The notes: generated by a model from the letters alone, not told the origin. A stretch of 54,649 bases of DNA from Gemmatimonadota bacterium (GCA_039590175.1 JBDHFW010000001.1:1-54649); one strand, 5' to 3'; positions 22,891-35,434 are shown, numbered from the stretch's first letter. A program made the numbers and translations.

Positions 22891-24129
22891 CTAAAGGCCG
22901 AAGCGCTTCGCCACGGCCTCGAGGTCGGGCGAGATGGCCTCCGGACGTTCGACCGGACGGCTGGCGGCGGGAACGTCCTTGAGACCGGTACCGGTGATCA
23001 GGAGGACGATCCGCTCGTCGCGTTCGACCAGGCCTTCCTCCAGAGCCGGGTAGAGGCCGGCTAGCGCCGCCGCGCCGGCGGGCTCTGCGAACACGCCCGT
23101 GTGACGAGCCAGGAAGGGGATGGCGTCGAGGATGTCGTCATCCGACACGGCGACCGCCCCGCCCGCCGATTCCCGGATGCGCTTTAGACAGAGGATCGCG
23201 TTGCGCGGAGTCTGTACCGTCAGGCTGTCCGCGACGCTGGCTGCATCCGGCACCGGCGTAACCGTCTCGGCGCCATGCCTGAAGGCGGTCACGATCCCGG
23301 CCGACCCCTCCGGTTGGACGGCGACCAGTCGAGGCATGCGAGCCAGCAGCCCGGCTCGCACGAGGTCCCCGAACCCCTTGGCGGCACCGGCCAGGATCGC
23401 CCCGTCTCCGGTTGGCACGAAGACGACGTCGGGAGGCTCGGGCGTCATGGCGGCGGCGATCTCGAGCGCGACGGTCTTCTTGCCCTCGATCGTAAACGGG
23501 TTGAGGGCCGTGTTGCGGTTGTACCAGCCGAAGGCGTCGCACGCCTCCAGGCAGAGATCGAAGGCGTCGTCGTAGCTACCCTGCACTCGCACCACGTCCG
23601 CCCCGTAGCAGAGGAGCTGGACCAGCTTGGCCTCCGGCGCGGACGCCGGCACGAAGACCACCGCTCGGACGCCGGCGGAGGCTCCGACGGCGGCCAGCGC
23701 GGCGGCGGCATTGCCGGTGGAGGCCGTCGCGACCGTCTCGTATCCGTATTCCCTGGCCTTGGTGACGACGAGAAGGGAGGCTCGATCCTTCGTGGACCCG
23801 CTCGGATTCCGCGTGTCGTCCTTGATCCAAAGCCGTGGCAGGTCCAGAGCCTCTCGCAGGCCGGGAGCCGGCAGCAGCGGCGTGCCGCCGACGTCCAGGG
23901 GCGGCACCGCGGAAGGATCCGAGAACGGGAGGAAAGCCGCGAGGAAGTCGGTGTCGGAGAGCCGGGCCTTCGGCCACCCTGTCGGCAGCGTGTCCAGCTC
24001 GATCTCGAGCACCCCGCGCGTCGGTCCACCGGGCGCCTGAAGGGCGGCGCACGCCTCGCAGACCAGGAGCGCCGGCTGCTCCGCGTACGCCCGGCCGCAC
24101 TCGCAGCAGCGAAGCCGGAAGCCGCTCAC
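22891..24129 (-). CDS. Threonine-synthase-like fold-type-II PLP enzyme with an N-terminal zinc ribbon (last gene of the operon)
   Basis: CCECG...x12...CEAC ribbon. PLP-lysine context NPSGSTKDRAS. ATASTGNAAAALA. GTG start overlapping the ygeW-like stop (GTGA). Confidence 0.7.
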   Translation of the reverse strand: MSGFRLRCCECGRAYAEQPALLVCEACAALQAPGGPTRGVLEIELDTLPTGWPKARLSDTDFLAAFLPFSDPSAVPPLDVGGTPLLPAPGLREALDLPRLWIKDDTRNPSGSTKDRASLLVVTKAREYGYETVATASTGNAAAALAAVGASAGVRAVVFVPASAPEAKLVQLLCYGADVVRVQGSYDDAFDLCLEACDAFGWYNRNTALNPFTIEGKKTVALEIAAAMTPEPPDVVFVPTGDGAILAGAAKGFGDLVRAGLLARMPRLVAVQPEGSAGIVTAFRHGAETVTPVPDAASVADSLTVQTPRNAILCLKRIRESAGGAVAVSDDDILDAIPFLARHTGVFAEPAGAAALAGLYPALEEGLVERDERIVLLITGTGLKDVPAASRPVERPEAISPDLEAVAKRFGL

Positions 24130-25115
24130 ATCACCAGCGCCATGAGAGCCTTCTGCACGTGAAGCCGGTTCTCGGCCTCGTCGTACACGACCGAGTGGGG
24201 CCCGTCGATCACCTCGTCCGTGACCTCTCGGCCGCGGTCCGCGGGCAGCGGGTGCATGTAGATGAGGTGTCCCTTGCCGAGAGCGACGCGCTCGGCGTCA
24301 CACCGCCAATCGGGATATTTTTCGATCAGGCGAAGCCTCTCCGCCGTATCCCCGGTGTGGACGAGAGGCCCCCAGGACTTCGGGACCACCACGTCCGCAT
24401 CCTCGAACGCCTCTTCGAGCGTGTGCGTGATCCGAAACTGGCCTCCGGCGGCTTCCGCGTTCGCTTTCGCCTGCTCCTCGATCTCCGGCATGAGCCGAAA
24501 CTCGGGCGGGTACGCCAGCGTCACGTCCAGCCCGAAGCGCGGCATCATCAGAACGAGGCTTTGCGGCACGGAGATCGGCCGCACGTAGTTGGGAGCGCTC
24601 GTCCACGCCACGCCGATCTTCAGGCCTCGCGTGTCCGCGAATCGCTCCCGGATCGTCATGTAGTCGGCCAGGATCTGGCAGGGATGGTAGAGGTCGTCCT
24701 GCATGCTGAGGACCGGGATCTCGGCGTGCTCCGAGACTTCCCGGATATAGGCGTTCCCCTCTCCGTGCGTGCAGTGCCGGATGGCGATCCCCTCTCCGTA
24801 CCTCGAGAGGACGTTGGCCGTGTCCTTGGCGTTCTCTCCATGGCTGATCTGCATGCGGTGGGGGGAGAGATAGACGCCGTGTCCGCCCAGCTGCGTGATT
24901 CCGGTCTCAAAGGAGTTCCGCGTTCGAGTCGAGGGGTCGAAGAAGATCATGTACAGCGTCTTGTCAGGGAGCAGAGGTGTCCTTTCGCCCGCCTTCTTGG
25001 CCCGCTTGAGCTGCTCGGCGAGAATGAAGAGCGTGTCAAGCTCCTCGAGCGTCCAGTCCTGCGTCGAGATGAAGTCGCGGCCCTTGAGGCCTGGTGGGAT
25101 GACGATCTCTCTCAC
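24126..25115 (-). CDS. ygeW: YgeW-type carbamoyltransferase (ATCase/OTCase superfamily)
   Basis: STRTRNSFE, QISHGENAKDTANVLS, GEGNAYIREV, HPCQ, AWTSAPNYVRPISVPQ, RFGLDVTLAYPPEF, AFEDADVVVPKSWGP, YPDWRCD and LIYMHPLPAD parallel E. coli YgeW motif by motif. At 329 aa it is shorter than my recollection of YgeW. GTG start in a GTGA overlap with the ygeY stop. Confidence 0.7.
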   Translation of the reverse strand: MREIVIPPGLKGRDFISTQDWTLEELDTLFILAEQLKRAKKAGERTPLLPDKTLYMIFFDPSTRTRNSFETGITQLGGHGVYLSPHRMQISHGENAKDTANVLSRYGEGIAIRHCTHGEGNAYIREVSEHAEIPVLSMQDDLYHPCQILADYMTIRERFADTRGLKIGVAWTSAPNYVRPISVPQSLVLMMPRFGLDVTLAYPPEFRLMPEIEEQAKANAEAAGGQFRITHTLEEAFEDADVVVPKSWGPLVHTGDTAERLRLIEKYPDWRCDAERVALGKGHLIYMHPLPADRGREVTDEVIDGPHSVVYDEAENRLHVQKALMALVM

Positions 25116-26329
25116 GGGGTGAGCTCTTCCTCGAGCGAGGCCAGGAAGGCCGGGATCAGGCTGTAGACGGCGGTCGCCCGCACCAGATCCTCCACCGCGA
25201 CCCACTCTCCGGTGGTGTGGGAGAGCTCTTCGAGACCAGGCGCGAAGCCTACCGTCGGGATGCCGTGCCGGCCCATCGTGGCCACGCCGTTCGTCGAGAA
25301 GGACCAGCGGGAGATGGCCGGAGGCGAGCCCAGCACGGCCTCCACGGCACCGGCCACGCCACGCACGAGCGGATGCCCCTCGGGAAGCACCCAGCTCGGA
25401 AAGAACTTCTCCTGCCGGGCAAGCTCTCCACGCCAACTCACCTCGTCGTACTGAAGAAGCTCCACCTCCGCATCGCCCAGATGGGGAAGGGAGCGCAGCT
25501 CGTCGAGGGCCGCGTCGGCTGACTCGCCGGCGGTGAGTCGGCGATCGATGTTGATGCGCGCGCCCTCCGGCACCGCGTTCAGCGACACGGTGGTGCACTC
25601 GATGTTCGAGACCACGACCGTGCCCTTGCCGAGGAAATCGTCGGAGGGGAGGCGGTCGTTCAGCGCTTCGACGTCGGAGATGATCGGCGCCAGCTTGTAC
25701 AGCGCGTTCACTCCCTCCTCGGGATGGGCCGCGTGCGAGGATCGCCCCTTGGTCGAGATGGTGGCCTCCACACGACCGCGCTGGCCTCGATAGACGCCGA
25801 GATCGGTGGGCTCCCCGATGACAACGACGTCCGGCCGGATGCCTTCCTGCTCGATCAGGTGGAGGAGGCAGTAGCCGTCGCAGTCCTCCTCCATCACCGA
25901 GGCCGTGAGATAGAGCGTGACGTTCTCCGGCAGGCCGCGGGATTGGGCGAGCGCTGCCCCATAGGCCATGCACGCGATCGCCGGCAGCTCATCGACCGCT
26001 CCTCTACCCCAGACCTTTCCCTCTTCCAGCTTCCCCTCAAACGGATCATGCTCCCAGGCGTCACGATCCCCTACGCCGACGCAGTCGATGTGACCGTCCA
26101 TGAGGATCGTGAACGGCCCGTTTCCGATCCTCGCGACCACGTTGCCGAGCCGGTCGAATCCGACCTCGTCGAAGCCTAGCTTCTCGTACTCCCACCGAAC
26201 CCGCTCGCAGCGCTCGCCCTCCCGCCGGCTTTCGGCGGGGATGGCGATCATGTCGCGCAGAAAGCGAACGATCTCCCCCTCGAGGCGCCCCGCGTCCTCC
26301 AGGGCCGCTCGCCCCTCGTTATCCGCCAT
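25112..26329 (-). CDS. ygeY: YgeY-family M20 metallohydrolase
   Basis: FLRDMIAIPAES, DGHIDCVGVG, MEEDCDGYC, VYRGQRGR, RWSFSTNGVATMGRHGIPTVGFAPG: a near-collinear motif match to E. coli YgeY. Confidence 0.8.
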   Translation of the reverse strand: MADNEGRAALEDAGRLEGEIVRFLRDMIAIPAESRREGERCERVRWEYEKLGFDEVGFDRLGNVVARIGNGPFTILMDGHIDCVGVGDRDAWEHDPFEGKLEEGKVWGRGAVDELPAIACMAYGAALAQSRGLPENVTLYLTASVMEEDCDGYCLLHLIEQEGIRPDVVVIGEPTDLGVYRGQRGRVEATISTKGRSSHAAHPEEGVNALYKLAPIISDVEALNDRLPSDDFLGKGTVVVSNIECTTVSLNAVPEGARINIDRRLTAGESADAALDELRSLPHLGDAEVELLQYDEVSWRGELARQEKFFPSWVLPEGHPLVRGVAGAVEAVLGSPPAISRWSFSTNGVATMGRHGIPTVGFAPGLEELSHTTGEWVAVEDLVRATAVYSLIPAFLASLEEELTP

Positions 26330-27776
26330 ACGTCACACCCGTCTCCTCGTTGAACGCTTCTATCGCCGCGTCCCACTCGGGGAGCAGAGCGGCCGCTTCG
26401 GTCCAGAAGAGAGGATCCCAGAGGGCGTTCAGCTCCTCGACCGTCTTCCCCTGCTGCTCCACCCAGGTGAAGTACTTGAGGTTGTGGATCGCCTTCCGGT
26501 CCGTGAAGCGCAGCTCCCGGAGGTGATCGGTGGTCGCACCGAGCAGGTAACGTTCGAGATCGGCCGCGGCCTGGCGCTCCGAATACTCCCCACGCTCCTC
26601 GCTCAGCTCCTCCAGTCGGGTTCGGTAGAGATCCACGGAATCGGTGAAGGAGGTGAAGATGATGTCGTGCTCGTCGAGCTCGAAGTAGCGCGCCGTCTTG
26701 ATGGCGGCGAGCGCGTTGCAGATGCTGGAGATGCCGAGGGCCGGCAGTCTCCGGATCACGTCGTTCGGGACTCCGTACTCGGCGAGCACGGGTCGGCCCG
26801 CGGGCTCGTTGAAGAGACGGAGGAGGCGCATCGTCGCCTCGTCATCGATCGCGGTGACCAGATCGGTGTTGCGGACGTTGTGGATCCACGGCACGTGCTT
26901 GTCACCGATCCCCTCGATCCGGTGGGCACCGAATCCGGCCGTGAGCAGGGTGGGGCACTGCAGTGCCTCGGCGGCCGTGATCCGGCATTCCGGGAAGCTG
27001 CGCTTGAGCCGGTCGCCGGCAGCCAGGGTCCCCGCAGAGCCGGTAGCGCCGACCCAGGCGGCGCAACGGTCGCTCTCGACCGCGATGTGCCGGAAGACCG
27101 TCTCTGCTGAGGGTCCCGTCACCCCGTAATGCCAGAGGTAATTCCCGAACTCATCGAACTGATTGAAGATCACCGCGTCGGGCTGGGAGCGGCGCAGCTC
27201 CCAGCACGCGTCGAAGATCTCCTTGACGTTGCTCTCGCTTCCCGGAGTCCGGATGATCTCGGCGCCGATCCCTTCCAGCCAGTCGAAGCGTTCTCGGCTC
27301 ATCTCTTCCGGCAGGATCGCCACGGCTCGGCACCCGAGCAGGGCGCTGTCGAATGCACCGCCCCGGCAGTAGTTCCCGGTGGATGGCCACACGGCACGAT
27401 GGGTCGTGGGGTCGAACTCGCCGGCCACGAGACGAGGCACCAGGCAACCGAAGGCGGCTCCCACCTTGTGCGCGCCCGTGGGGAAGTGCTCCCCGACGAG
27501 ACCCACGATCCGCGCGGGGACGCCTGTCAGCTCCGGTGGGAGCTCCAGATAGTTGACCTCACCGAAGGCTCCGGTGTCCGGGTCGTTATGCCATGTGATC
27601 CGGAAGAGATTGAGCGGGTGCACGGCCTGCATGTCGATATCTGCCAGCTCCGCTACCAAAGACGGATTCAGACCGGAGGGCTCCCTCATCTCGGCGAACG
27701 TGGGGATGAGGATCCTCCGCTCCCTGCATCTCTCGATCGCTCTCTGCCGCACGGCAGAATCTATAATCTGACTCAA
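26319..27776 (-). CDS. Long (485-aa) fold-type-II PLP-dependent enzyme (Trp-synthase-beta / cysteine-synthase superfamily) with a C-terminal extension
   Basis: PTGAHKVGAAF (Lys in a TrpB-like HK context), STGNYCRGGAF, ILPEEMSRERFDWLEGIGAEI. TTG start with a weak SD, so the start is uncertain. The 3' end overlaps the ygeY start by 11 nt. Confidence 0.65.
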   Translation of the reverse strand: MSQIIDSAVRQRAIERCRERRILIPTFAEMREPSGLNPSLVAELADIDMQAVHPLNLFRITWHNDPDTGAFGEVNYLELPPELTGVPARIVGLVGEHFPTGAHKVGAAFGCLVPRLVAGEFDPTTHRAVWPSTGNYCRGGAFDSALLGCRAVAILPEEMSRERFDWLEGIGAEIIRTPGSESNVKEIFDACWELRRSQPDAVIFNQFDEFGNYLWHYGVTGPSAETVFRHIAVESDRCAAWVGATGSAGTLAAGDRLKRSFPECRITAAEALQCPTLLTAGFGAHRIEGIGDKHVPWIHNVRNTDLVTAIDDEATMRLLRLFNEPAGRPVLAEYGVPNDVIRRLPALGISSICNALAAIKTARYFELDEHDIIFTSFTDSVDLYRTRLEELSEERGEYSERQAAADLERYLLGATTDHLRELRFTDRKAIHNLKYFTWVEQQGKTVEELNALWDPLFWTEAAALLPEWDAAIEAFNEETGVTYGG

Positions 27777-27786
27777 GTGTGTAATC

Positions 27787-29163
27787 CTAACCCTCTGATA
27801 AACCGAGATATGGAGTGTTCCAGTCCAGGGCGTGAAAACGCTTCCACAGCGGTGGGGCCAGCTCCCGGGCCCGCGCCGTCAACTCCTCGGGATCGAGGGT
27901 GGTGTGGCGGAAGTCTTCCAGCAACACCCGGCCACGCGCCACCGTGTGCCGCACGGGAGCCTCGCTGGAGCCGTAGACCAGGTGCCCGAACAGGTTCTCT
28001 TCGGAGATCGGGGTCGGAGGCGGGGAATCGACCGAGATGACATCGGCCGGCGCCCCTTCCACCAGTTGGCCGAGGAGCGGCTCCGGAAAGAAGCGCCGCG
28101 CCACGGCGGCGTTGTTGGCCAACAGCTCCGGCAGTGCCTCGAAGCCCGAGAACGGATCACCGGTCGCTCCTCGATGCGTCAGGAAGGCGAAGCGCAGAGC
28201 CCGCAGCATCGAGGCGGAGATGCCGTCCGTGCCCAGGCCGATCGTGCAGCCGAGCGCGGCGGTCCGCGGCACGTTGAGGCGGCCGACGCCGTTGTTGGCG
28301 TTGGATTCCGGGTTGTGGATCAGAGTCGCATCAGCTTCCGCCGCCCGCTCGTAATCCGCCTGCTCCAAGTGGATCGCGTGGGCGAGCAAGGCGCGCTCGT
28401 CCAGCAGGCCGGAGCGTCCGAGCCGCTCTATCGGGCCGGCCCCGAACGCAGCAATGGATGCGCGCACATCCACCGGATCTTCGGCGACGTGAATGTGGCA
28501 GCCCGACCCGGGCGGTCGGCGCTCGGCCACCCGGGCCAGCGTCTCATCCCGGAGCGTGAAGCTGGCGTGGAGGCCGACGACGCCGCGGATCCGAGGGTCA
28601 TCGGCTCGATCGGTCAGGAAGCGCAGGTTCTCTTCGATCCCCGCCCTGGCGCCCTCGGAACCGTTGCGATCCGTGACCTCGTAGCAGAGGAGTGCCGAGA
28701 TCCCGGCTCGGTCGACCGCGTCGGTGATCGCGTGGAGGCTTCCGTCGATGCAGGACGGCGAGGCGTGGTGGTCGAACACGGTGGTGCAGCCGTGCCGTAC
28801 GCACTCGGCGGCCGACAGAAGGGCCGAGATCCGCACGGTTTCGGCGTCGAGCGCGCGGTCCAGCCGCCACCAGAGGCGATCCAGCACCTCCGGGAAGCTT
28901 CGCATCGGCACGCCGGGGTCCAGACCTCTTGCCAGGGCCGAATAGAAGTGATGGTGGATGTTGACCAGGCCGGGCAGGATGATCCCGCCGCGACCATCCA
29001 GGTAGTGCGCGTCGGGGAAACGCGCTCTGATTGCCGATTCCTCGCCAGCGGCGGAGATCCGCTCTCCCGTCCAGGCGACGGCGCCGTGCGGCACGACCTC
29101 GGCAGGGGAGCCGCCCGTCACCAACGTGGCGTTACCCAGGATCCAGGTCTCGAGCTCGCTCAT
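27787..29163 (-). CDS. ssnA: SsnA-type aminohydrolase (amidohydrolase superfamily, guanine/cytosine-deaminase-like)
   Basis: LPGLVNIHHHFYSAL (HxH), HVAE, NPESNANNGVG, GLGTDG. 458 aa. The ATG lies in an ATGA overlap with the upstream amidohydrolase stop. Confidence 0.75.
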   Translation of the reverse strand: MSELETWILGNATLVTGGSPAEVVPHGAVAWTGERISAAGEESAIRARFPDAHYLDGRGGIILPGLVNIHHHFYSALARGLDPGVPMRSFPEVLDRLWWRLDRALDAETVRISALLSAAECVRHGCTTVFDHHASPSCIDGSLHAITDAVDRAGISALLCYEVTDRNGSEGARAGIEENLRFLTDRADDPRIRGVVGLHASFTLRDETLARVAERRPPGSGCHIHVAEDPVDVRASIAAFGAGPIERLGRSGLLDERALLAHAIHLEQADYERAAEADATLIHNPESNANNGVGRLNVPRTAALGCTIGLGTDGISASMLRALRFAFLTHRGATGDPFSGFEALPELLANNAAVARRFFPEPLLGQLVEGAPADVISVDSPPPTPISEENLFGHLVYGSSEAPVRHTVARGRVLLEDFRHTTLDPEELTARARELAPPLWKRFHALDWNTPYLGLSEG

Positions 29164-30563
29164 GTTCCGACCTTCGATTCCCGCCTCACGTGCCGCCCGA
29201 GGCCGGGGTCTCCGAACCACTCGCCATCATCGTCCTCCAGACGGTATACGGGCTGCCCTCGCACGAACGCCCGCCGGACCCGACCGGTCAAGTCGTATCC
29301 ATCCAGCGGCGTATACGGGTTCATGTTGTGGAGATTCTCCGCACTCACCCTCCAGGTCTCATCGTCGGCGAGCCCCACGAGATCCGCGTCGAAGCCGGGC
29401 TCGAGCCTCCCCTTCCGGCTCTCGATGCCGAAGAACCTCGCGGGCGCGGACGCGGTGAGCTCCGTGAGCCGCTCGAGCGTGATCCGCCCTCGGCGGACGC
29501 CCTCCGAGTACAGGTAGGGCAGGGAGAGCTCCACGCCCGGCACGCCGCCGTAGTCGGTCCAGATGGAGCCGGTGTGCTTCTCCTCGGGCCACTGGCCGGC
29601 TGCGTGGTCCGTCGCGACGTAATCCAGCTCTCCCGAGGCGAGCCCCTCCCAGAGGCGATCCCGGTCGGCCTCTCCCTTCACGACAGGCGCCGTCTTGAGC
29701 AGGGCGCCCTGCCGGCGGAGATCATCCGCGGTGAACTCCAAAAAGTGCGGGCAGGTCTCCGCAGACATGGGCAGGCCTTCGTCGCGGGCCGCGGTGACGA
29801 TGTCCAGCGCGGCGCCGGTGGCGAGGTGGACGATGTGCACGCGTGCGCCCGTCTCGCGGCAGAGCTCACTCATCGTTGCGACGGCGGATATCTCCGCGGC
29901 CGGCGGCCGAGACTCTGCGTAGTCCAATGGCTCGTTTCGGCCTTCCGCCCGGATGCGGCTCGTGAGCTCGTGCACGATCTCCCGATCTTCGGCGTGCACG
30001 CCGACGGGAACCCCCTGTCGAGCGATCTCGGCGAGCGCCTCGGCGAGCTGAGAGCGCGACAGATCCCGGAAGGTCTCCATGCCGGAGAGCATGTAGACCT
30101 TGATCGAGGCCACGCCCGCCTCGACGATCTCCGCCAGGTTTCGTCTCCACTCCCGATCGGCCATGGCGTTGGCGGAGACGCCGCCCCACAGCATGAAGTC
30201 GACGTGCGCCTTCGGCTGGATCACCGCCAACTTCGTCCGGAGGTTGTCGGCAGAGGTCACCGGGGGGAGGGAGGTGCAGGGCATGTCGACGATGCAGGTG
30301 ACACCACCGGCGGCGGCCGCACGGGTGCCGGTCTCGAAGTCCTCTCGGTGCGTGAACCCCGGGTCGTCGAAATGGACGTGACCGTCGATGACGCCCGGGA
30401 GGACGAGAAGGCCGCCGAGCTCGACGATCTCTTCGTCCGCCTCCGCCGGCATTGGTTCCGGTGCCGCCATCTCCGCGATCCGGCCGTCGATGACGAGGAT
30501 GGAGGCCGCCCGCGTCTCATCTCCGCCCGCCGGCACCCTGAGGTCGGTGAATCGCTTCTTCAC
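29160..30563 (-). CDS. Cyclic amidohydrolase of the allantoinase / hydantoinase / dihydroorotase family (HyuA/AllB-like)
   Basis: LPGVIDGHVHFDDPG, GGVTCIVDMP, SIKVYM (candidate carbamylated Lys), VHAED, VHIVHL, ETCPHFL, LWEGLASGELDYVATDHA. GTG start in a GTGA overlap with the ygfK-like stop. Confidence 0.8.
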   Translation of the reverse strand: MKKRFTDLRVPAGGDETRAASILVIDGRIAEMAAPEPMPAEADEEIVELGGLLVLPGVIDGHVHFDDPGFTHREDFETGTRAAAAGGVTCIVDMPCTSLPPVTSADNLRTKLAVIQPKAHVDFMLWGGVSANAMADREWRRNLAEIVEAGVASIKVYMLSGMETFRDLSRSQLAEALAEIARQGVPVGVHAEDREIVHELTSRIRAEGRNEPLDYAESRPPAAEISAVATMSELCRETGARVHIVHLATGAALDIVTAARDEGLPMSAETCPHFLEFTADDLRRQGALLKTAPVVKGEADRDRLWEGLASGELDYVATDHAAGQWPEEKHTGSIWTDYGGVPGVELSLPYLYSEGVRRGRITLERLTELTASAPARFFGIESRKGRLEPGFDADLVGLADDETWRVSAENLHNMNPYTPLDGYDLTGRVRRAFVRGQPVYRLEDDDGEWFGDPGLGRHVRRESKVGT

Positions 30564-32563
30564 GAGGGAGACGGGTTCACCGGGTTCGGAGTATCGGAGT
30601 GATAGACCGAGGTCCACACCGTCCGCGCTCGTGCTGCGCCCGCGAGGTCGAGCTCGGCGTCGAGGCTCTCGGCCGCGAGCCGTCCGTTCTCGTCGATCTC
30701 CAGCTCGTACTCCGTGCCGCCCAGGCGCGCGTGCAGCACCTCCCCGGCCCGACAGAAGCCGTCCAGCTCCGATTCGTCGAAGGCGGCGCGCGTCAGGAAG
30801 ACGATCTCCTTCTCGACGAAGGGGGCGCCCGATTCGGGACAATAGACCTCACAGTTGGAGCACTCGTTGCACGCTCCCTCGAATACGGCGAGTTGGTGCG
30901 ACTCCCGGATCGCGAAGCCGTCCACCTCGACGGGGTTGGCCTCGTAGGCGAAGATCGCGTCGTTCGGGCAGGCCTGGATGCAGAGGTCGCAGTTGATGCA
31001 GTCGTACAGCGCCAGGACGCTGTCGATCTGGCGTGGCGGCTTCGAGTTGGCCGAGGCGTGGTAACGTGGATCCTCGACCAGGGAAGGGACGATCTCACGC
31101 CCGTTCAATCGGCCGGCGACACGCGTCGCGTGGAGCACGAGCGCGTCGCCGTCGAGGCCGGCGGCCTCCCCGGCTTCACTGAGCGCGGCGGGCAGCTCGT
31201 CCGGCGAGCTCTCGGCGGTACGGCGCAACCGATCGATCTGCCGGTCGCCCTCGAGCTCTCGCTCGCCCGCGGCGCCCGGGAACGTGATTAGGGTGTCGCT
31301 GACCGCCTCTGCCGCGTGGCCTCCCGCGGCGAGAACATACGCCTCGCGCGACGTGACACCGGTCTTCTGCATCTCCCGGGCGAGCGCCTTCAGGTAGCCC
31401 GGCAGACGGCCGAATCCCCCCTGTCTGAGAAGATCGGTGCAGGTCGTGACCGGGACCATCCCGCAGGCCACGGCCGCCGGGAAGTTCTTGACGTCGATGC
31501 CGGCGGAGAAGGAGACCGGGAACTCGAAGCCGAGATCCTCCCGAAACCGCTGCATGAGGTTCATCGAGATCACGTGCAGGGGTGGGCCCGACACGTACAT
31601 GTAGGGATCGGTCTGGGTCGGGAAGAACTCCGGCTCGTTCTCCACGACGAGCGTGTTCGTGAACTTCGCTCCGACGATCGAGCCCTGCCGCTCGGCCACC
31701 GATCGCAGCCGCCTCAGGATCTCGAGGCCGTCGTCGTACTGCAGGTCGACGTCGAAGGCCTCCCGCCGCAGTCTCAGGTGCGTGTAGCCAAGGCGGTCGA
31801 ACAGGATCTCACGTACCGCCTCGAAGCCCAGCAGGGTCGGGTTCAGCTTGACGATCGTGTGAAGGCCGACGTCTTCGAGCAGGTAGCGGCAGATGGACTC
31901 GATCTGATCGGCCGGGCAGCCGTGGAAGGTGGAAAGCGTGACGGTGTCCGAGATCTGCCGGGGGAGGTCGATCTCCGAGAACTCCGCCAGGTCTCCGCTC
32001 AGCTCTGCGCGCAGGAGTTCGAAGCTCTGCGCCGGATCCTTCATCCCCTCGATGAAGCCGGTCACCTTCTCGCTCCGAATACCCTCGAGGTCGTAGCCGA
32101 CGCTGATGTCGAAGACCGTGTCGAGTCCGTGCTCGGAGGGGAGCCGGCCGAAGGCGCGCGTGGTCTTGAGGATCTCGATCAGATACGTGGCCTTGGCGTA
32201 CTCCGTGAGCGACTCTTCGACGAGGAGCTCCTGCGACCACTCGACGTTGTAGCCGACGTTCGGGACGTGAATGCAGGGACGCGGGATCCGGAGCCGGTCG
32301 TTGACCTGCACGGTCTTGATCTCGATGATCCGGCTTCCCGCCAGCCATGAGAGCACGATGTTCTGGGCGAGCTGGGTGTGCGGCCCAGCCGCCGGGCCTA
32401 CCGGCGTGGACGCGCGGTGCCCGAAGTGAAGCGCCGAGAAGTCCAGTTCGTCGCTCGGAACCCACCACTTGCGGACGGGCAGATCGAATATGGAGTCGGC
32501 CGTCTCGACCTCGCGCCGCATCCGGCGCACGAGGTCGGGGAATGGGATCGGCTGCAGCTCCAT
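30560..32563 (-). CDS. ygfK: Truncated YgfK-like protein: DPD/DHODH-like TIM-barrel domain plus 2x[4Fe-4S] ferredoxin domain, without the GltD-like FAD/NAD(P)H module
   Basis: TPVGPAAGPHTQLAQNIVLSWLAGSRIIEIKTVQ and LSTFHGCPADQIESICRYLLEDVGLHTIVKLNPTLLG match the YgfK N-terminus. The C-terminus carries CINCDLCIQACP and CNECSNCEVYCP. No GxGxxG/A fingerprint was seen. The ATG overlaps the Mo-hydroxylase stop (TGATG). Confidence 0.75.
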   Translation of the reverse strand: MELQPIPFPDLVRRMRREVETADSIFDLPVRKWWVPSDELDFSALHFGHRASTPVGPAAGPHTQLAQNIVLSWLAGSRIIEIKTVQVNDRLRIPRPCIHVPNVGYNVEWSQELLVEESLTEYAKATYLIEILKTTRAFGRLPSEHGLDTVFDISVGYDLEGIRSEKVTGFIEGMKDPAQSFELLRAELSGDLAEFSEIDLPRQISDTVTLSTFHGCPADQIESICRYLLEDVGLHTIVKLNPTLLGFEAVREILFDRLGYTHLRLRREAFDVDLQYDDGLEILRRLRSVAERQGSIVGAKFTNTLVVENEPEFFPTQTDPYMYVSGPPLHVISMNLMQRFREDLGFEFPVSFSAGIDVKNFPAAVACGMVPVTTCTDLLRQGGFGRLPGYLKALAREMQKTGVTSREAYVLAAGGHAAEAVSDTLITFPGAAGERELEGDRQIDRLRRTAESSPDELPAALSEAGEAAGLDGDALVLHATRVAGRLNGREIVPSLVEDPRYHASANSKPPRQIDSVLALYDCINCDLCIQACPNDAIFAYEANPVEVDGFAIRESHQLAVFEGACNECSNCEVYCPESGAPFVEKEIVFLTRAAFDESELDGFCRAGEVLHARLGGTEYELEIDENGRLAAESLDAELDLAGAARARTVWTSVYHSDTPNPVNPSPS

Positions 32564-35241
32564 CAGCCGCCTGTCCCTGCTTTTACCCGTGACTTCGGGA
32601 CGGACGGCGCGGCGGCCGGAGCGTCGCTCATGGGTAGATCGAAGCGACGCTTGCCGTCGAAGGCGTGGAGGGCGCCGGCCACCGCCCCCGCCGTCGGCAC
32701 GAGGCCGATCTCGCCCACGCCTTTCGAGCCGTAGCCCCCCACCTCATCGGGGACCTCTATGAGGATGACGTCGATCGGCGGCGTGTCCTTCGCCTTCAGA
32801 ATGCCCAGGTCCCGGAGCAACAACGAATCGGGCCGGCCATCCGTGCACGGGAGATCTTCAGAGAGCGCGTAACCCAGTCCCATGTGCACGGAGCCTTCGA
32901 TCTGGTTGGCGCAGAGCAGGGGATTGATTGCCCGTCCCACGTCATGGGCGGCGACCACGCGCTCCAGCCGTCCGTCCTCATCCAGGATGACCACCTGGGT
33001 CGCGTAGCTGAAGGTCATGTGGGTCACCGGGTCCCCGTTCGCCTCGCCGGGCTTCGTGGTGAAATCGCAGATGTACTCGCCGTGGTACTCCTTCCCGACG
33101 AACTCGTCCAGCGGAGCGCAGGCGAGGTCATCGGCGAGATCTCGTGCCGCGATCTGTCCGGCCGCGGTCAGGAGCGCCGTGGCGCGGGAGGCGGTGGTCA
33201 TCCCGCACAGCACCCTGGGATCGCTCGTCGTTCTCACCGTCATCAGCTCCGGATCAAGACCGGTCTCATGTGCGACGACCTGGCGGAGGATCGTGTATAG
33301 ACCCTGGCCCATCTCCGTGTATCCGGTCAGGACCTCGATCCGCTCGCCCTCCAGAACGCGAAGCAGCAGGCGGCCGCTGTCATCCATCCCGTTGCCGATC
33401 CCGGTGTTCTTGATGCCGCAGCCGATGCCTGCGAAGCGGGCGTTCTTGTAGACGTCTCGCACCACCTCCAGCGTCTGACGGATGCCGCAGCTCTCGGTCA
33501 TCAGCTGGCCGGTGGCGAAGGGGTCTCCGGGTTCGAGGATGTTGCGATCCCTAATGTCGTAGCCGTCGAGCCCGACCCGTTCCGCCAGAAGATCCATGAT
33601 CCCTTCGATCGCGAAGGACGCCTGGTTGGCGCCGAAGCCGCGCATCGCACCGCAGGGTGGATTGTTCGTGTAGACCGTCTTCGCCTCGACGTCGACGTTG
33701 GGCACCCGGTACGGTCCGCAGGAATGCCCGGCCGCGCGCTCCAGCACCTTCATCCCGACCGAGGCGTAGGCGCCCGTGTCGCCGACGATTCTCGCCCGAA
33801 CCGCCGTGAGTCGTCCCTCCGTGTCGGCACCCACCGTGTAGGCGAGCGAGATCGGATGCCTCTTCGGGTGCATGCGGATGGACTGTTCTCGAGTGAGCAC
33901 CGTCCGTACGGGCCGGCCTGTCAGACGAGCGGCCAGGGCGGTCTGGGCCTGGACGGAGAGATCCTCCTTGCCTCCGAACGCCCCGCCGTTGGCGACGAGC
34001 TCGACGTTGACCGCGTCCGGCTCCAGACCGAGCACGGCGGCGATCTGGGCCTGGTCGTCGTGCACGCCCTGACCCTGCGTGTAGACCCTGAACTTGTCTC
34101 CGTCCAGAGGCTCTGCGAGACAGGCCTCCGGCTCGAGGAAGGCGTGCTCGATCCTCTGCGTCGCGAAAGTCTGTTCCACGACGTGAGCCGAGTCGGCCAG
34201 CGCGGCACTTACGTCGCCGCGTGAGAAGGCGCACACCTCCAGGAGGTTGCCGCCCTCGTGGACCCTGGGGGCATCGTCGGCTAGTGCGGCGAACGGATCC
34301 CCCACCGGCGGGAGCACCTCGTACTCGATGGCGGCCTCCAGCGCCTCCGCCGCCTTGCGCGCCCGAAACGGCGTGTCGGCCAGAACGAGAGCCAGAACAT
34401 CTCCGACGCAGCGTGTGATCTCGCCCTCGGCCACGAAGACGGGCCAGTCCGGCCGGATCAGACCCACGTTGCGCTCGCCTGGAACGTCCTCCGCGGTGAC
34501 TACCCGTTCCACGCCGGGGCGCGCCAGCTCCTCCTCCGCGTCGATTTGCAGCACGCGCGCCCGAGGGTGTTGGCTGAGAGCCACCGCTCCATGCAGCATG
34601 CCGTCTCGGACCATGTCTGCAACGTAGGATTTATCGCCCAGGGTGTAGTCCTCGCCTCGAAACCGCGCGCTGCTGCCGCCTACGCCGTCCTGTGCCTGTG
34701 GGGAGGAACGCGAGAGTCCGAACTCCTCTCCGAAGAAGAAGGGTCGTCTGGGCGTTCCATCCGCCAGCTCGCCGCCGCTCTGCCACGCTTCGCCGGCGGT
34801 ACGGATGGCGTCGATGATCCGCTGGAAGCCCGTGCAGCGGCAGAGGTGGCCAGAGATAGCCCGGCTGACAGCCTCCCGGTCATCCGTGCCCTGGTGGTCG
34901 AGGAGGGAGCAGGTTCGAACCGCCAGTCCAGGCGTGCAGTAGCCGCACTGGAGTCCGCCCTCCCGGACGAAGGCCTCGGCTACCAGACGGCGCTGCTCTT
35001 CAGGGATGCCCTCGAGCGTCGTAACGGATTTCCCGTCCACCGTATCGGGCTTCCTCAGACAGGAGAGAACCGCTCGGCCTTCGAGGAGGATGGCGCAACA
35101 GCCGCAGTAGCCCTGAGGCGCACAGCCGTCCTTCGGGGACGTCACGCCGCAAACGTCACGCAGCACCTCGAGGAAGGTCATGCCCTCCTCGTACTCGGCC
35201 ACCATCTCTCGGCCGTTCAACACGAAATTCAGCTGCGGCAT
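32563..35241 (-). CDS. Molybdenum hydroxylase (xanthine-dehydrogenase family) with fused N-terminal 2x[2Fe-2S] domain; first gene of the operon
   Basis: Fe-S motifs CAPQGYCGCC...SC, CGYCTPG and CRCTG. Mo-pterin domain motifs GGAFGGKE, GAMRGFG and GVGEIGLVPTAGAVAGAL. 892 aa from the internal ATG, with GGGGTGGGGAG immediately upstream. Confidence 0.85.
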   Translation of the reverse strand: MPQLNFVLNGREMVAEYEEGMTFLEVLRDVCGVTSPKDGCAPQGYCGCCAILLEGRAVLSCLRKPDTVDGKSVTTLEGIPEEQRRLVAEAFVREGGLQCGYCTPGLAVRTCSLLDHQGTDDREAVSRAISGHLCRCTGFQRIIDAIRTAGEAWQSGGELADGTPRRPFFFGEEFGLSRSSPQAQDGVGGSSARFRGEDYTLGDKSYVADMVRDGMLHGAVALSQHPRARVLQIDAEEELARPGVERVVTAEDVPGERNVGLIRPDWPVFVAEGEITRCVGDVLALVLADTPFRARKAAEALEAAIEYEVLPPVGDPFAALADDAPRVHEGGNLLEVCAFSRGDVSAALADSAHVVEQTFATQRIEHAFLEPEACLAEPLDGDKFRVYTQGQGVHDDQAQIAAVLGLEPDAVNVELVANGGAFGGKEDLSVQAQTALAARLTGRPVRTVLTREQSIRMHPKRHPISLAYTVGADTEGRLTAVRARIVGDTGAYASVGMKVLERAAGHSCGPYRVPNVDVEAKTVYTNNPPCGAMRGFGANQASFAIEGIMDLLAERVGLDGYDIRDRNILEPGDPFATGQLMTESCGIRQTLEVVRDVYKNARFAGIGCGIKNTGIGNGMDDSGRLLLRVLEGERIEVLTGYTEMGQGLYTILRQVVAHETGLDPELMTVRTTSDPRVLCGMTTASRATALLTAAGQIAARDLADDLACAPLDEFVGKEYHGEYICDFTTKPGEANGDPVTHMTFSYATQVVILDEDGRLERVVAAHDVGRAINPLLCANQIEGSVHMGLGYALSEDLPCTDGRPDSLLLRDLGILKAKDTPPIDVILIEVPDEVGGYGSKGVGEIGLVPTAGAVAGALHAFDGKRRFDLPMSDAPAAAPSVPKSRVKAGTGG

Positions 35242-35434
35242 CTCCCCACCCCTTTCGGTGCCGGTCTCGCTCTCCGGCAAAAAATGGGTGCCGGGGCCCT
35301 CTCTTGTCACGTCGGGACGCGTGAGGGCGTCCCCCTGGGACCACGGCCACATTCAGCGCACAGGTAGTGCGACCTCGGCCGAAGGTAGGCTATTGTGCCG
35401 CTCGAATCCCCGCTCATTCCCACGGAGGCATCCG

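What the first reader, a model, noticed from the sequence alone, without database searches (positions are those of the whole stretch)
22891..35241. Eight-gene, translationally coupled molybdenum-hydroxylase / ureide-breakdown operon: a non-canonical version of the ygeW-ygeY-hyuA / ygfK-ssnA-xdhD system
Seen in sequence: eight minus-strand CDSs run head to tail from 35241 to 22891. Their junctions are TGATG (32563), GTGA (30560-30563), ATGA (29160-29163), a 10-nt gap (27777-27786), an 11-nt overlap (26319-26329), GTGA (25112-25115) and GTGA (24126-24129).

By motif the products are, in order:
- a [2Fe-2S]-fused Mo hydroxylase;
- a YgfK-like Fe-S/TIM-barrel protein;
- an allantoinase/hydantoinase-type amidohydrolase;
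- an SsnA-type aminohydrolase;
- a 485-aa fold-II PLP enzyme;
- a YgeY-type M20 hydrolase;
- a YgeW-type carbamoyltransferase;
- a ThrC-like PLP enzyme.

Established knowledge: these families are the hallmark set of the E. coli ygeW-ygeX-ygeY-hyuA-yqeA and ygfK-ssnA-ygfM-xdhD region. TIGRFAMs groups that set as the 'selenium-dependent molybdenum hydroxylase system', and it has been linked to anaerobic urate/purine degradation.

Inference: here the set is compacted into one operon in a GC-rich, OMP-rich organism. Within 54 kb it lacks the diaminopropionate ammonia-lyase YgeX, carbamate kinase, the FAD subunit YgfM, the maturation genes yqeB/yqeC/mocA and any regulator. It gains two other PLP enzymes. 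This looks like a distinct, undescribed wiring of the pathway.
Basis: partly seen in the sequence, partly recalled or inferred. Interest (0 to 1): 0.78.

Follow-up and report, generated by a model that had tools for sequence, protein, structure and literature searches.

The report
Variant reductive uric-acid breakdown operon
This is a real eight-gene operon in an uncultured Gemmatimonadota bacterium that most likely breaks down uric acid by the oxygen-free "reductive" route worked out in gut bacteria in 2025, but it ends with two unstudied vitamin-B6 enzymes instead of the known last enzyme, a pairing found in hundreds of environmental species.

Summary

Curated models support four assignments above cutoff:
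- a TIGR03311 Mo hydroxylase
- SsnA (borderline)
- YgeY
- an allantoinase-type ring hydrolase

Two further genes are relatives that fail their cutoffs:
- The "YgfK" is a short form. It keeps the FMN barrel and the 4Fe-4S domain and lacks the NAD(P)H/FAD module.
- The carbamoyltransferase fails the YgeW cutoffs. It is a short sister clade of YgeW.

No YgeX, carbamate kinase, YgfM, YqeB, YqeC or MocA lies in the window.

The underlying pathway (urate, 2,8-dioxopurine, diureidopropionate, diaminopropionate, pyruvate) was solved in 2025. Forms without the FAD module or without a clustered kinase are already described. So this is a variant, not a new system.

The new part is the pair of PLP enzymes:
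- A 485-aa CysK-fold protein belongs to a compact, uncharacterised family. It matched at least 599 stretches in a collection holding one genome per species, spanning about 15 phyla. In 29 of 38 well-flanked loci it sits beside uricolytic genes.
- A threonine-synthase paralogue differs from two solved threonine synthases at the positions I recall as the phosphate site. It stands where YgeX normally does.

The function of both PLP enzymes is inferred, not shown.

The parts
32563..35241 (-). W1: Mo hydroxylase with a fused N-terminal [2Fe-2S] part (892 aa) and no FAD subunit. Proposed role: urate to 2,8-dioxopurine reductase (XdhAC/DOPDH-like).
   Evidence: TIGR03311 Se_dep_XDH scores 873 against a cutoff of 830. 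Pfam finds Fer2_2, Ald_Xan_dh_C and MoCoBD_1/2. The best solved relative is the Se-dependent nicotinate dehydrogenase 3hrd. Identity to E. coli XdhD is 25%. The role is inferred from context and from the matching architecture of C. sporogenes XdhAC.
30560..32563 (-). W2: short YgfK-like reductase (667 aa). It has an FMN TIM barrel and a 2x[4Fe-4S] domain and lacks the central NAD(P)H/FAD module. Proposed role: 2,8-dioxopurine reductase.
   Evidence: Identity to YgfK is 40% over residues 5-405 and 33% over 905-1002; nothing matches YgfK 406-904. TIGR03315 scores 427 against a cutoff of 835. The AF2 model (pLDDT 78) is closest to pig dihydropyrimidine dehydrogenase and to DHODH barrels. Its start overlaps the W1 stop by 1 nt (TGATG).
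29160..30563 (-). W3: cyclic amidohydrolase of allantoinase type (467 aa). Proposed role: opening the hydantoin ring of ureidomethyl-hydantoin, in place of HyuA.
   Evidence: TIGR03178 allantoinase scores 399 against a cutoff of 358. D-hydantoinase TIGR02033 scores 263 against 393. Identity to E. coli HyuA is 32%. This type was seen only in the Gemmatimonadota-type operons L006, L007 and L009.
27787..29163 (-). W4: SsnA-type aminohydrolase (458 aa). Proposed role: opening the reduced pyrimidine ring.
   Evidence: NF005540 scores 449 against a cutoff of 444 (passes). TIGR03314 scores 427 against 455.5 (fails). Identity to E. coli SsnA is 37%.
26319..27776 (-). W5 (PLP-485): uncharacterised CysK/CBS-fold PLP enzyme with N- and C-terminal helical extensions. 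Proposed role: a beta-elimination or beta-replacement step on the C3 amino acid (albizziin or diaminopropionate), working with W8.
   Evidence: Curated models give only weak CysK matches (84 against a cutoff of 351). The AF2 model (pLDDT 85) is closest to CysK, CBS and Fn1055, with TM about 0.8 normalised to the target and 22-27% identity. The PLP lysine K104 is invariant in 30 homologues, and the STGN, TGSAGT and GISS motifs are almost fully invariant. The family gave 599 confirmed stretches in a one-genome-per-species collection at 57-85% identity among the 80 kept. It sits next to uricolytic genes in 29 of 38 well-flanked loci.
25112..26329 (-). W6: YgeY-type M20 hydrolase (405 aa). Proposed role: hydrolysing one ureido group.
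   Evidence: NF009555 scores 456 against a cutoff of 321, and TIGR03526 scores 447 against 321.5. Identity to E. coli YgeY is 45%.
24126..25115 (-). W7: short YgeW-related carbamoyltransferase (329 aa). Proposed role: phosphorolysis of the other ureido group to carbamoyl phosphate.
   Evidence: It fails the YgeW models (204 against 453; 196 against 500) and the OTC models (275 against 306). It shares with YgeW, but not with ArgI or PyrB, the segments W-x-S-x-P-x-Y-x-x-P-x-SVPQ and PKSW[GA]. It lacks three YgeW insertions and the C-terminal tail. In a neighbour-joining tree it is sister to the YgeW clade, with ArgI outside.
22891..24129 (-). W8: threonine-synthase paralogue (412 aa) with an N-terminal four-Cys motif that I read as a zinc ribbon. 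Proposed role: the terminal deaminating step, in the place of YgeX.
   Evidence: TIGR00260 scores 189 against a cutoff of 167, and PRK08197 scores 282 against 303. Both solved ThrCs shown in the alignment (2zsj, 1uim) read STGNT, NP[YH]R and GNAGN; W8 reads STGNA, NPFT and GDGAI. The changes are family-wide in 37 homologues. It is 70% identical to the PALP gene at the same position in L004, and a homologue is present in 19 of 38 well-flanked PLP-485 loci.
35242..35434 (.). 193-bp divergent intergenic region upstream of W1; presumed promoter region.
   Evidence: It is bounded by the W1 start and by the 380-aa divergent gene. No Rfam family and no sigma-70-like site were found in it.
35435..36577 (+). 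Divergently transcribed 380-aa outer-membrane beta-barrel-like protein. It may be a substrate porin; the association is uncertain.
   Evidence: It has a signal peptide and a C-terminal RLRYFF. A 69%-identical copy is also present in L007. It has no Pfam hit.

Best explanation
The operon encodes a version of the reductive uric-acid (2,8-dioxopurine) pathway that has no NAD(P)H-binding modules.

Inferred steps:
1. W1 removes the 6-oxo group of urate to give 2,8-dioxopurine.
2. W2 reduces the pyrimidine ring. Its gene overlaps W1 by one base, and its 4Fe-4S domain is probably fed by a ferredoxin-like donor.
3. W4 (SsnA) opens that ring to give ureidomethyl-hydantoin.
4. W3, recruited from the allantoinase lineage in place of HyuA, opens the hydantoin ring to give 2,3-diureidopropionate.
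5. W7 (short YgeW-like carbamoyltransferase) and W6 (YgeY) remove the two ureido groups. One leaves as carbamoyl phosphate, the other as CO2 and NH3.
6. W5 (PLP-485) and W8 (ThrC-like) convert the resulting C3 amino acid, albizziin or diaminopropionate, to pyruvate and ammonia. Together they do the job of the missing YgeX.

My preferred split of step 6 is that W8 is the deaminating lyase. W5 would then perform a preceding beta-replacement or beta-elimination, or a stereochemical adjustment, on a beta-N-substituted alanine.

What is shown here: gene structure, family membership, domain content and conserved clustering. What is inferred: every substrate and every reaction.
For: **Family matches**
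- The best-scoring NCBIfam model is a family of the E. coli/clostridial cluster for four products. Three pass a curated cutoff (TIGR03311, NF005540, NF009555/TIGR03526); W2 has YgfK as its best match but stays below cutoff.
- W3 (allantoinase type) and W7 (ornithine carbamoyltransferase models score higher than YgeW models) are paralogous relatives of HyuA and YgeW.

**Agreement with the solved pathway**
- The pathway and the enzyme roles were established in vitro for the E. coli, C. difficile and C. sporogenes homologues.
- C. sporogenes XdhAC has the same Fe-S plus Moco architecture, without FAD, as W1, and it does not use NAD(P)H.
- The W2 model resembles the FMN barrel and Fe-S domains of dihydropyrimidine dehydrogenase.

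**Conservation**
- The operon order is conserved in L006, L007 and L009. The sub-module PLP-485 / YgeY / carbamoyltransferase / ThrC-like is conserved in Acidobacteriota loci L002, L004 and L010.
- Of 23 multi-gene clusters around PLP-485, 19 also carry a ThrC-like gene and 1 carries YgeX instead (L070).
- The PLP-485-like / ThrC-like pair persists even in a distant clade (35% identity) that has no other uricolytic genes nearby (L088).

**Active-site indications**
- W8 has residue changes at the positions I recall as the ThrC phosphate site.
- W5 keeps the CysK catalytic motifs.
Against: - There is no biochemical or expression evidence for this lineage.
- The regiochemistry of a Mo hydroxylase cannot be read from sequence. 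W1 is only 25% identical to XdhD and lacks its E606 insert.
- TIGR03311 is named a xanthine dehydrogenase.
- W4 and W3 pass their cutoffs only narrowly.
- No carbamate kinase, urate transporter, selenium-cofactor gene or regulator is near the operon. About 31 kb of the contig to the right of the window, and the rest of the genome, were not seen.
- One PLP enzyme is enough in E. coli, so the need for two is unexplained.
- Four multi-gene clusters carry PLP-485 as the only PLP enzyme within 10 kb. This leaves open which of the two replaces YgeX.
- Nine of 38 well-flanked PLP-485 loci have no uricolytic neighbour.
Confidence: 0.65

Rival explanations
1. The operon uses the same chemistry on a different substrate. 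It would degrade another oxidised N-heterocycle, such as a different oxopurine, an 8-oxo or amino purine, or a substituted pyrimidine or hydantoin. The amino acid released would differ from diaminopropionate, which would explain why two other PLP enzymes replace YgeX.
For: - W1 belongs to a different Mo-hydroxylase family from XdhD.
- W3 is allantoinase-like, not HyuA-like.
- Several PLP-485 clusters (L002, L012, L061) have a DPD-like reductase and ring hydrolases but no Mo enzyme within 10 kb.
- No urate permease is in the cluster.
Against: - SsnA, YgeY and a YgeW-related transferase occur together, and this combination is so far known only from the uricolytic cluster.
- L070 combines PLP-485 with UacT, YgfK, YgeW, YgeX, YqeB and YqeC.
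- L009, L031, L057 and L059 carry a separate XdhABC-type set in the same 21-kb locus as the cluster. This fits a route from xanthine to urate and onward.
Confidence: 0.2
2. The operon is an allantoin or ureide pathway of the classical kind. It would run from allantoinase through an M20 allantoate amidohydrolase to an oxamate-type carbamoyltransferase, with the Mo enzyme acting as an ordinary xanthine dehydrogenase.
For: - W3 passes the allantoinase model TIGR03178.
- TIGR03311 is named a xanthine dehydrogenase.
- From my own knowledge of the pathway, M20 hydrolases and carbamoyltransferases also occur in anaerobic allantoin catabolism.
Against: - W6 meets the YgeY equivalog models at 456 against a cutoff of 321. 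Its other listed matches are ArgE/DapE-type deacylases, all far lower, and no allantoate amidohydrolase model is among the 25 families shown.
- SsnA and a YgfK-type reductase have no role in the allantoin route.
- No uricase, HIU hydrolase, ureidoglycine or ureidoglycolate enzyme turned up among the window ORFs I scanned or the public gene calls.
Confidence: 0.05
3. PLP-485 is not a catabolic enzyme. It would be a maturation factor that supplies sulfur or selenium to the Mo cofactor, for example as a cysteine or selenocysteine lyase. This would compensate for the missing yqeB and yqeC.
For: - Its fold is closest to CysK and to H2S-producing Fn1055-type enzymes.
- In several loci it lies next to the Mo enzyme, or next to MocA- and YqeB-like genes (L016, L029, L054, L059, L064).
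Against: - Six multi-gene clusters keep PLP-485 without any Mo enzyme within 10 kb (L002, L022, L036, L040, L061, L072).
- Its most frequent immediate neighbours are ThrC-like (14 loci), SsnA (12) and YgeY (11). The Mo enzyme is an immediate neighbour in only 5.
- L070 has PLP-485 together with YqeB and YqeC.
Confidence: 0.07
4. W5 and W8 are ordinary housekeeping cysteine synthase and threonine synthase that happen to lie in the operon.
For: - Public annotations call relatives of W5 'cysteine synthase'.
- W8 passes the broad thrC model TIGR00260.
Against: - W5 scores 84 against a cutoff of 351 for CysK and has about 95-aa and 100-aa extensions.
- W8 carries changes at the positions I recall as the ThrC phosphate site, and they are family-wide.
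- Both genes are start-stop coupled inside the operon.
- They co-occur with uricolytic genes across many phyla.
Confidence: 0.03

Closest known systems
E. coli ygeW-ygeX-ygeY-hyuA-yqeA / ygfK-ssnA-ygfM-xdhD uricolytic region (reductive uric acid pathway; Li et al. 2025, bioRxiv 10.1101/2025.05.19.654654)
   Same: It has homologues of YgfK (40% over the N-terminal barrel), SsnA (37%), YgeY (45%), HyuA (32%), YgeW (35%) and a Mo hydroxylase with fused 2Fe-2S. The expected chemistry is the same: two reductions, two ring openings and two ureido cleavages, ending in a PLP step.
   Different: - It lacks YgeX, YqeA, YgfM, YqeB, YqeC, MocA, transporters and the YgeV regulator.
- The Mo enzyme is TIGR03311 type, not XdhD type.
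- The YgfK-like protein lacks the NAD(P)H/FAD module.
- The hydantoinase is of allantoinase type.
- The carbamoyltransferase is the short form.
- It has two extra PLP enzymes.
- It is one compact, start-stop-coupled operon rather than two divergent blocks.
Clostridial 2,8-dioxopurine clusters (C. sporogenes XdhAC/DOPDH; C. difficile XdhD and UacX; Liu et al. 2025, bioRxiv 10.1101/2025.04.24.650524)
   Same: The Mo enzyme has Fe-S and Moco domains only and does not depend on NAD(P)H. The reductase has no FAD domain. Carbamate kinase may be encoded elsewhere, as in C. sporogenes.
   Different: - Here the FAD-less reductase is a truncated YgfK, not a PydA-type UacX.
- The terminal enzyme is not YgeX.
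- PLP-485 and the ThrC paralogue are not part of the described clostridial clusters.
- The host is a GC-rich environmental Gemmatimonadota, not a gut Firmicute.
CysK / CBS / Fn1055 beta-substituted-alanine synthase family (for W5)
   Same: It has the fold-type II PLP fold, with TM about 0.8 on the target. It keeps the lysine, the Asn-loop (STGN), the glycine-rich phosphate loop and the GISS serine.
   Different: - Identity is only 22-27%.
- It is far below every curated cutoff.
- It has extra N- and C-terminal helical domains of about 95 and 100 aa.
- It has invariant residues not seen in the CysK sequence aligned (R138, D292-K293-H294, W297, H299).
- It forms a compact separate family, with 354 representatives at 50% clustering at E<=1e-30.
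Threonine synthase ThrC (for W8)
   Same: It is full-length alignable to solved ThrCs at E=1e-57 and keeps the PLP lysine and the overall fold.
   Different: - STGNT, NP[YH]R and GNAGN, as read in two solved ThrCs, are replaced by STGNA, NPFT and GDGAI across the family. Their role as the phosphate site is my recollection.
- It has an added N-terminal four-Cys motif.
- It is always found in catabolic clusters here.

Membership tests
Reductive uric acid / 2,8-dioxopurine pathway gene cluster | Mo hydroxylase of the XdhD or XdhAC kind (2Fe-2S plus Moco) encoded in the cluster | tested here: met
   W1 has Fer2_2, Ald_Xan_dh_C and MoCoBD_1/2, and TIGR03311 scores 873 against a cutoff of 830. Substrate specificity was not tested.
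Reductive uric acid / 2,8-dioxopurine pathway gene cluster | Flavin reductase for dioxopurine (YgfK, UacX or an F420 type) next to SsnA | tested here: met
   W2 is 40% identical to the YgfK barrel and has a DPD/DHODH-like model. W4 SsnA lies two genes downstream.
Reductive uric acid / 2,8-dioxopurine pathway gene cluster | SsnA, the marker enzyme used by Li et al. (IPR017700) | tested here: inconclusive
   NF005540 scores 449 against a cutoff of 444 (passes). TIGR03314 scores 427 against 455.5 (fails). From memory, TIGR03314 is the model underlying IPR017700; if so, surveys based on IPR017700 may miss this protein.
Reductive uric acid / 2,8-dioxopurine pathway gene cluster | Hydantoin-opening cyclic amidohydrolase (HyuA) | tested here: inconclusive
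   W3 is a cyclic amidohydrolase, but it meets the allantoinase model (399 against 358) and not the D-hydantoinase model (263 against 393).
Reductive uric acid / 2,8-dioxopurine pathway gene cluster | Two ureido-cleaving enzymes (YgeY plus YgeW or UacY) | tested here: met
   W6 meets the YgeY models. W7 is a YgeW-related carbamoyltransferase.
Reductive uric acid / 2,8-dioxopurine pathway gene cluster | Diaminopropionate ammonia-lyase YgeX | tested here: not met
   There is no YgeX in the window. The best diaminopropionate ammonia-lyase score, for W8, is 55 against a cutoff of 276.
Reductive uric acid / 2,8-dioxopurine pathway gene cluster | Conversion of urate to pyruvate, or induction by urate | not testable with these tools
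   This needs enzymology or a cultured carrier.
Selenium-dependent molybdenum hydroxylase system (SelD, YqeB, YqeC) | Presence of yqeB, yqeC and selD in the genome | tested here: inconclusive
   YqeB and YqeC are absent from the 54.6-kb window by tblastn, and no such gene appears in the Pfam-annotated calls for the 6.3 kb beyond its left edge. SelD was not searched for. The rest of the genome could not be read. YqeB and YqeC are present beside related clusters in L054 and L070.
XdhD (TIGR03313) | Score above the curated cutoff; the E606-bearing insert | tested here: not met
   The score is 211 against a cutoff of 1102. The insert is absent.
YgfK (TIGR03315) | Full-length match that includes the pyridine-nucleotide oxidoreductase module | tested here: not met
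   The score is 427 against a cutoff of 835. Only profile positions 4-399 and the C-terminal ferredoxin part are matched.
YgeW knotted carbamoyltransferase (TIGR03316 / NF005538) | Score above the curated cutoff | tested here: not met
   Scores are 196 against 500 and 204 against 453. It is sister to YgeW in a neighbour-joining tree and shares YgeW-specific segments, but lacks three insertions. The knot itself was not tested.
YgeY (NF009555 / TIGR03526) | Score above the curated cutoff | tested here: met
   Scores are 456 against 321 and 447 against 321.5.
Cysteine synthase CysK/CysM | Score above the curated cutoff | tested here: not met
   W5 scores 84 against 351 (TIGR01139) and 28 against 394 (TIGR01138).
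Threonine synthase ThrC | Conserved residues that bind the substrate phosphate (T. thermophilus T88, R160, N188; recalled from Omi et al. 2003, not re-read) | tested here: not met
   The aligned positions are A, T and I in W8. In 37 homologues they are A (37 of 37), T/M/L, and I (34 of 37). The broad model TIGR00260 is nevertheless passed (189 against 167).

The most novel reading that the evidence does not exclude
PLP-485 and the ThrC paralogue form a previously unrecognised two-enzyme end-game of anaerobic purine breakdown, used by most environmental carriers of the pathway in place of YgeX. One possibility is beta-replacement or urea/ammonia elimination on D-configured albizziin or diaminopropionate, followed by deamination. 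Another is a racemase and lyase pair. In either case PLP-485 would catalyse a reaction not yet assigned to any CysK-fold enzyme, and it could bear on the open questions of stereochemistry and order of ureido cleavage.
Probability: 0.45. Interest if true: 0.65.

Novelty: new variant of a known kind. Interest (0 to 1): 0.55.

Why it matters
- **Reach of the pathway.** The reductive urate pathway was described only in 2025 and is presented as mainly a trait of host-associated anaerobes. This locus shows a differently built version that is common in uncultured soil and water phyla, including Gemmatimonadota, Acidobacteriota, Chloroflexota, Bacteroidota, Planctomycetota and Elusimicrobiota.
- **Two extra conserved enzymes.** These loci carry two conserved PLP enzymes that the published schemes do not contain.
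- **Possible misannotation.** Li et al. marked YgeX in genome neighbourhoods by the general PLP domain PF00291. That criterion may have counted these enzymes as YgeX.
- **What characterisation would give.** It would name a large unannotated family. It would also test whether the last steps, and their stereochemistry, differ outside the gut.
- **Electron supply.** The short YgfK next to a FAD-less Mo enzyme offers a simple system for the open question of which electron donor feeds these enzymes.

Tried and rejected
- **Riboswitch or other known RNA upstream of the operon.** Rfam found nothing in the whole window at gathering scores. In 35150-35500 it found only two weak lncRNA-model matches (E 0.6 and 2.6) that I take as chance.
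- **Promoter.** No sigma-70-like site lies in the upstream region. A GGCAC...TTGC string resembles a sigma-54 promoter, but by my count of the sequence the GG-to-GC spacing is 12 rather than 10, and the L006 copy ends in C rather than GC. I rejected it.
- **Reading beyond the window.** Three look-ups with guessed start codons found no recorded gene. One worked and gave 6.3 kb to the left. It holds an NCS2 xanthine/uracil permease about 37 kb from the operon, and no kinase or YgeX. About 31 kb of the contig to the right stays unread.
- **Domain fusions of PLP-485 as a clue to function.** The long relatives are fused to unrelated or fragmentary parts, and look like artefacts of gene calling.
- **Conserved neighbours in loci where PLP-485 has no uricolytic neighbour.** Only a 200-aa protein without a Pfam match recurs, mainly in Chloroflexota. 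The other neighbours are unrelated.
- **Moco-maturation role for PLP-485.** Considered and down-weighted.
- **Characterised or cultured members of the PLP-485 family.** None was found. All names are generic. The sister clade includes the cultured Litorilinea aerophila, where the gene sits beside a luciferase-like oxidoreductase.

Full report
**1. Observation**

The eight minus-strand CDSs are real. Each is a multiple of three in length and has no internal stop.
- TGATG at 32563
- GTGA at 30560-30563
- ATGA at 29160-29163
- a 10-nt gap at 27777-27786
- an 11-nt overlap at 26319-26329
- GTGA at 25112-25115
- GTGA at 24126-24129

The window is the reverse complement of part of a 96-kb contig of a metagenome-assembled genome (GCA_039584275.1, JBDGYC010000001.1). 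The closest relatives of its proteins are named Gemmatimonadota. It follows a purine-rich Shine-Dalgarno-like run, the TIGR03311 profile aligns from residue 5, and the homologue in L004 is 893 aa. GC content is even across the window at 0.63-0.69, so nothing marks the operon as foreign DNA.

**2. What the genes are**

Scores against curated NCBIfam models, E. coli comparisons and other evidence:

| Gene | Best model and score (cutoff) | Other evidence |
|---|---|---|
| W1 | TIGR03311 "selenium-dependent xanthine dehydrogenase", 873 (830) | TIGR03313 (XdhD) only 211 (1102); 25% identical to XdhD; lacks the insert with XdhD E606 |
| W2 | TIGR03315 (YgfK), 427 (835) | Matches YgfK residues 5-405 (40%) and 905-1002 (33%) only |
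| W3 | TIGR03178 allantoinase, 399 (358) | D-hydantoinase 263 (393); 32% identical to HyuA |
| W4 | NF005540 SsnA, 449 (444) | TIGR03314 427 (455.5), fails |
| W5 | CysK TIGR01139, 84 (351) | No curated family fits |
| W6 | NF009555 YgeY, 456 (321) | TIGR03526 447 (321.5); 45% identical to YgeY |
| W7 | OTC 275 (306) | YgeW models 204 (453) and 196 (500); fails all |
| W8 | TIGR00260 thrC, 189 (167) | PRK08197 282 (303), fails |

- **W2.** The whole pyridine-nucleotide/FAD module of YgfK is absent. An AlphaFold model built from 34 homologues (pLDDT 78) is closest to pig dihydropyrimidine dehydrogenase and to dihydroorotate dehydrogenase barrels. So W2 is an FMN barrel plus a 2x[4Fe-4S] domain. 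This short form is abundant in Gemmatimonadota and Acidobacteriota. It is usually annotated "4Fe-4S binding protein" or "putative selenate reductase".
- **W7.** In an alignment with E. coli YgeW, ArgI and PyrB it shares YgeW-specific segments (WxSxPxYxxPxSVPQ, PKSW[GA]). It lacks three YgeW insertions and the C-terminal tail. In a neighbour-joining tree its clade is sister to the YgeW clade, with ArgI outside.
- **W8.** The two solved ThrCs whose alignments were shown read STGNT, NP[YH]R and GNAGN. W8 and 37 homologues read STGNA, NPF[T/M/L] and GDGxI at the same positions. I recall from the Thermus thermophilus structure work that these positions bind the substrate phosphate, but I did not re-read that paper.

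**3. What is absent**

tblastn with the E. coli proteins finds none of the following anywhere in the window: YgeX, YqeA, YgfM, XdhB, YqeB, YqeC, MocA, XanQ, UacT, YgeV. Pfam scans and public gene calls of the flanks show:
- a convergent pyrroline-5-carboxylate reductase gene
- sulfatase and DUF3604 genes
- glycogen genes
- a carotenoid cluster
- no transcription factor near the operon

I could extend the view only 6.3 kb past the left edge. An NCS2 permease lies there, far from the operon.

**4. Comparison with what is known**

Two 2025 studies established the pathway for the E. coli, C. difficile and C. sporogenes homologues:
1. Urate is reduced to 2,8-dioxopurine by XdhD-YgfM or XdhAC.
2. 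YgfK or UacX reduces the dioxopurine.
3. SsnA opens the ring to give ureidomethyl-hydantoin.
4. HyuA opens the hydantoin to give 2,3-diureidopropionate.
5. YgeW (with carbamate kinase) and YgeY remove the ureido groups to give diaminopropionate.
6. YgeX converts diaminopropionate to pyruvate.

Those papers already describe several variants:
- enzymes that do not use NAD(P)H
- a hydrolase in place of YgeW
- an F420-type reductase in Chloroflexota
- a kinase encoded elsewhere

Neither paper mentions a CysK-like or ThrC-like enzyme. Li et al. marked "YgeX" in genome neighbourhoods by the general PLP domain PF00291, which cannot tell these enzymes apart. Percudani's commentary lists three open questions: the electron donor of XdhAC, the stereochemistry of the intermediates, and the order of ureido cleavage.

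**5. The two PLP enzymes in other genomes**

*Size and character of the family*
- PLP-485 is unusually conserved. The best 120 relatives are at least 73% identical, and named ones come from Gemmatimonadota and Acidobacteriota.
The best 80 span about 15 phyla, are 57-85% identical, and are almost all from MAGs.
- The family is compact, with 354 representatives at 50% clustering at E<=1e-30. It has no named or cultured member.
- Its AlphaFold model (pLDDT 85) is a CysK/CBS fold with extra helical ends. The catalytic lysine is invariant and the CysK-type Asn-loop, phosphate-loop and serine motifs are almost fully invariant.

*Neighbourhoods*

I labelled the ORFs of 82 loci by BLAST against the window proteins, the E. 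coli proteins and a few others. Among 38 loci with at least 8 kb on both sides, 29 have at least one uricolytic-family gene within 10 kb and 23 have three or more. The counts are:

| Family within 10 kb | Loci (of 38) |
|---|---|
| ThrC-like | 19 |
| Carbamoyltransferase | 18 |
| SsnA-like | 18 |
| Mo enzyme | 17 |
| Reductase | 16 |
| YgeY-like | 14 |
| Hydantoinase-like | 13 |
| Carbamate kinase | 11 |
| YgeX | 1 |

- Across all 82 loci, the commonest immediate neighbours (within 400 bp) are ThrC-like (14), SsnA (12) and YgeY (11).
- Six multi-gene clusters keep PLP-485 but have no Mo enzyme nearby. This argues for a role in the later steps and not in cofactor maturation.
- The window's eight-gene order recurs in L006, L007 and L009.
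- Acidobacteriota loci keep the block PLP-485 / YgeY / carbamoyltransferase / ThrC-like. It is joined either to XDH, short YgfK and SsnA (L004, L008, L010; kinase also in L004 and L010) or to a DPD-like reductase with two ring hydrolases (L002).
- A distant sister clade (35% identity) still has a ThrC-like gene divergently adjacent, without other uricolytic genes (L088).
- In the cultured Litorilinea aerophila the sister-clade gene sits next to a luciferase-like oxidoreductase.

These counts are lower bounds. Only the best 80 genome loci were kept, and only families in my reference set were scored.

**6. Interpretation**

The operon is best read as a version of the reductive urate pathway without NAD(P)H modules. 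I put this at about 0.65. Four steps are filled by paralogues or trimmed forms:
- a TIGR03311-type Mo enzyme
- a short YgfK
- an allantoinase-type ring hydrolase
- a short YgeW-like transferase

The last step is taken over by the PLP pair.

L070 carries YgeX where the other clusters carry the ThrC paralogue, and it still keeps PLP-485. From this I favour the ThrC paralogue as the deaminating lyase. PLP-485 would then be an added beta-replacement, beta-elimination or stereochemical step on albizziin or diaminopropionate. However, four clusters have PLP-485 as the only PLP enzyme within 10 kb, so the split of roles is open. All substrates are inferred.

The rivals are given with their evidence in the structured fields:
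- a related but different heterocycle
- a classical allantoin route
- a cofactor-maturation role for PLP-485
- chance co-location of housekeeping genes

**7. Verdict**

The system is now a known kind, and several "missing" parts are known variations. The new element is a widespread environmental variant with two uncharacterised PLP enzymes. That makes it a new variant of a known kind, of moderate interest.

Noticed in passing
window 35435-36577 (+): A 380-aa protein with a signal peptide and a C-terminal RLRYFF, typical of outer-membrane beta-barrels, is transcribed divergently from the operon. A 69%-identical copy is also present in the Gemmatimonadota locus L007. It has no Pfam hit. It could be an uptake porin.
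   Followed up: partly
L086 15972-17186 (about 1.6-2.8 kb beyond window position 1): An NCS2 xanthine/uracil permease gene lies just outside the left edge of the window, about 37 kb from the operon.
   Followed up: no
window 44816-52989 (+): A carotenoid biosynthesis cluster: lycopene cyclase, polyprenyl synthase, two phytoene-desaturase-type oxidases, phytoene synthase, a UbiE-type methyltransferase and a Rieske/DUF5914 protein.
   Followed up: no
window 37719-43666: Glycogen genes: an alpha-glucan phosphorylase (+), the branching enzyme GlgB (-) and the glycogen synthase GlgA (+). My first ORF pick at 37137-39764 (-) was a spurious antisense frame of the phosphorylase gene.
   Followed up: partly
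window about 9746-12415 (+): A tryptophanase/tyrosine-phenol-lyase-type beta-eliminating lyase domain sits at the C-terminal end of an 889-aa protein. The N-terminal extension of about 480 aa has no Pfam match.
   Followed up: no
window 21723-22847 (+): A pyrroline-5-carboxylate reductase gene is convergent with the last operon gene. The public call is 275 aa. It is kept in the same position in L006, with no obvious link to the pathway.
   Followed up: no
L026 11495-12115 and 14 other mainly Chloroflexota loci: A conserved protein of about 200 aa without a Pfam match lies downstream of PLP-485, immediately so in some loci. In many of them it comes just before a HyuA-like hydantoinase.
   Followed up: partly
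L002 7317-9869 (-) and L012, L021, L061: Some PLP-485 clusters have a fused 850-aa dihydropyrimidine-dehydrogenase-like reductase with its NAD(P)H/FAD part, instead of YgfK. L002, L012 and L061 have no Mo enzyme within 10 kb; L021 does have XDH-like genes. This suggests entry at a later intermediate or a different substrate.
   Followed up: partly
L076 11308-13446 (+): In a Longimicrobiales genome, PLP-485 is followed by a 713-aa Amidohydro_3 plus cupin protein. The Amidohydro_3 family is the one Li et al. used to mark the UacY ureido hydrolase.
   Followed up: no
P0126 / P0301 (Aduncisulcus paluster): A 46%-identical PLP-485 homologue is annotated in an anaerobic eukaryote (a metamonad). This may be a lateral transfer or contamination.
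   Followed up: no
L009 (contig CAXMRU010000295.1): A MAG labelled Akkermansiaceae carries the same eight-gene operon at 65-80% identity to the Gemmatimonadota version, preceded by XdhA/XdhC/XdhB-type genes. This could be horizontal transfer or a binning error.
   Followed up: no
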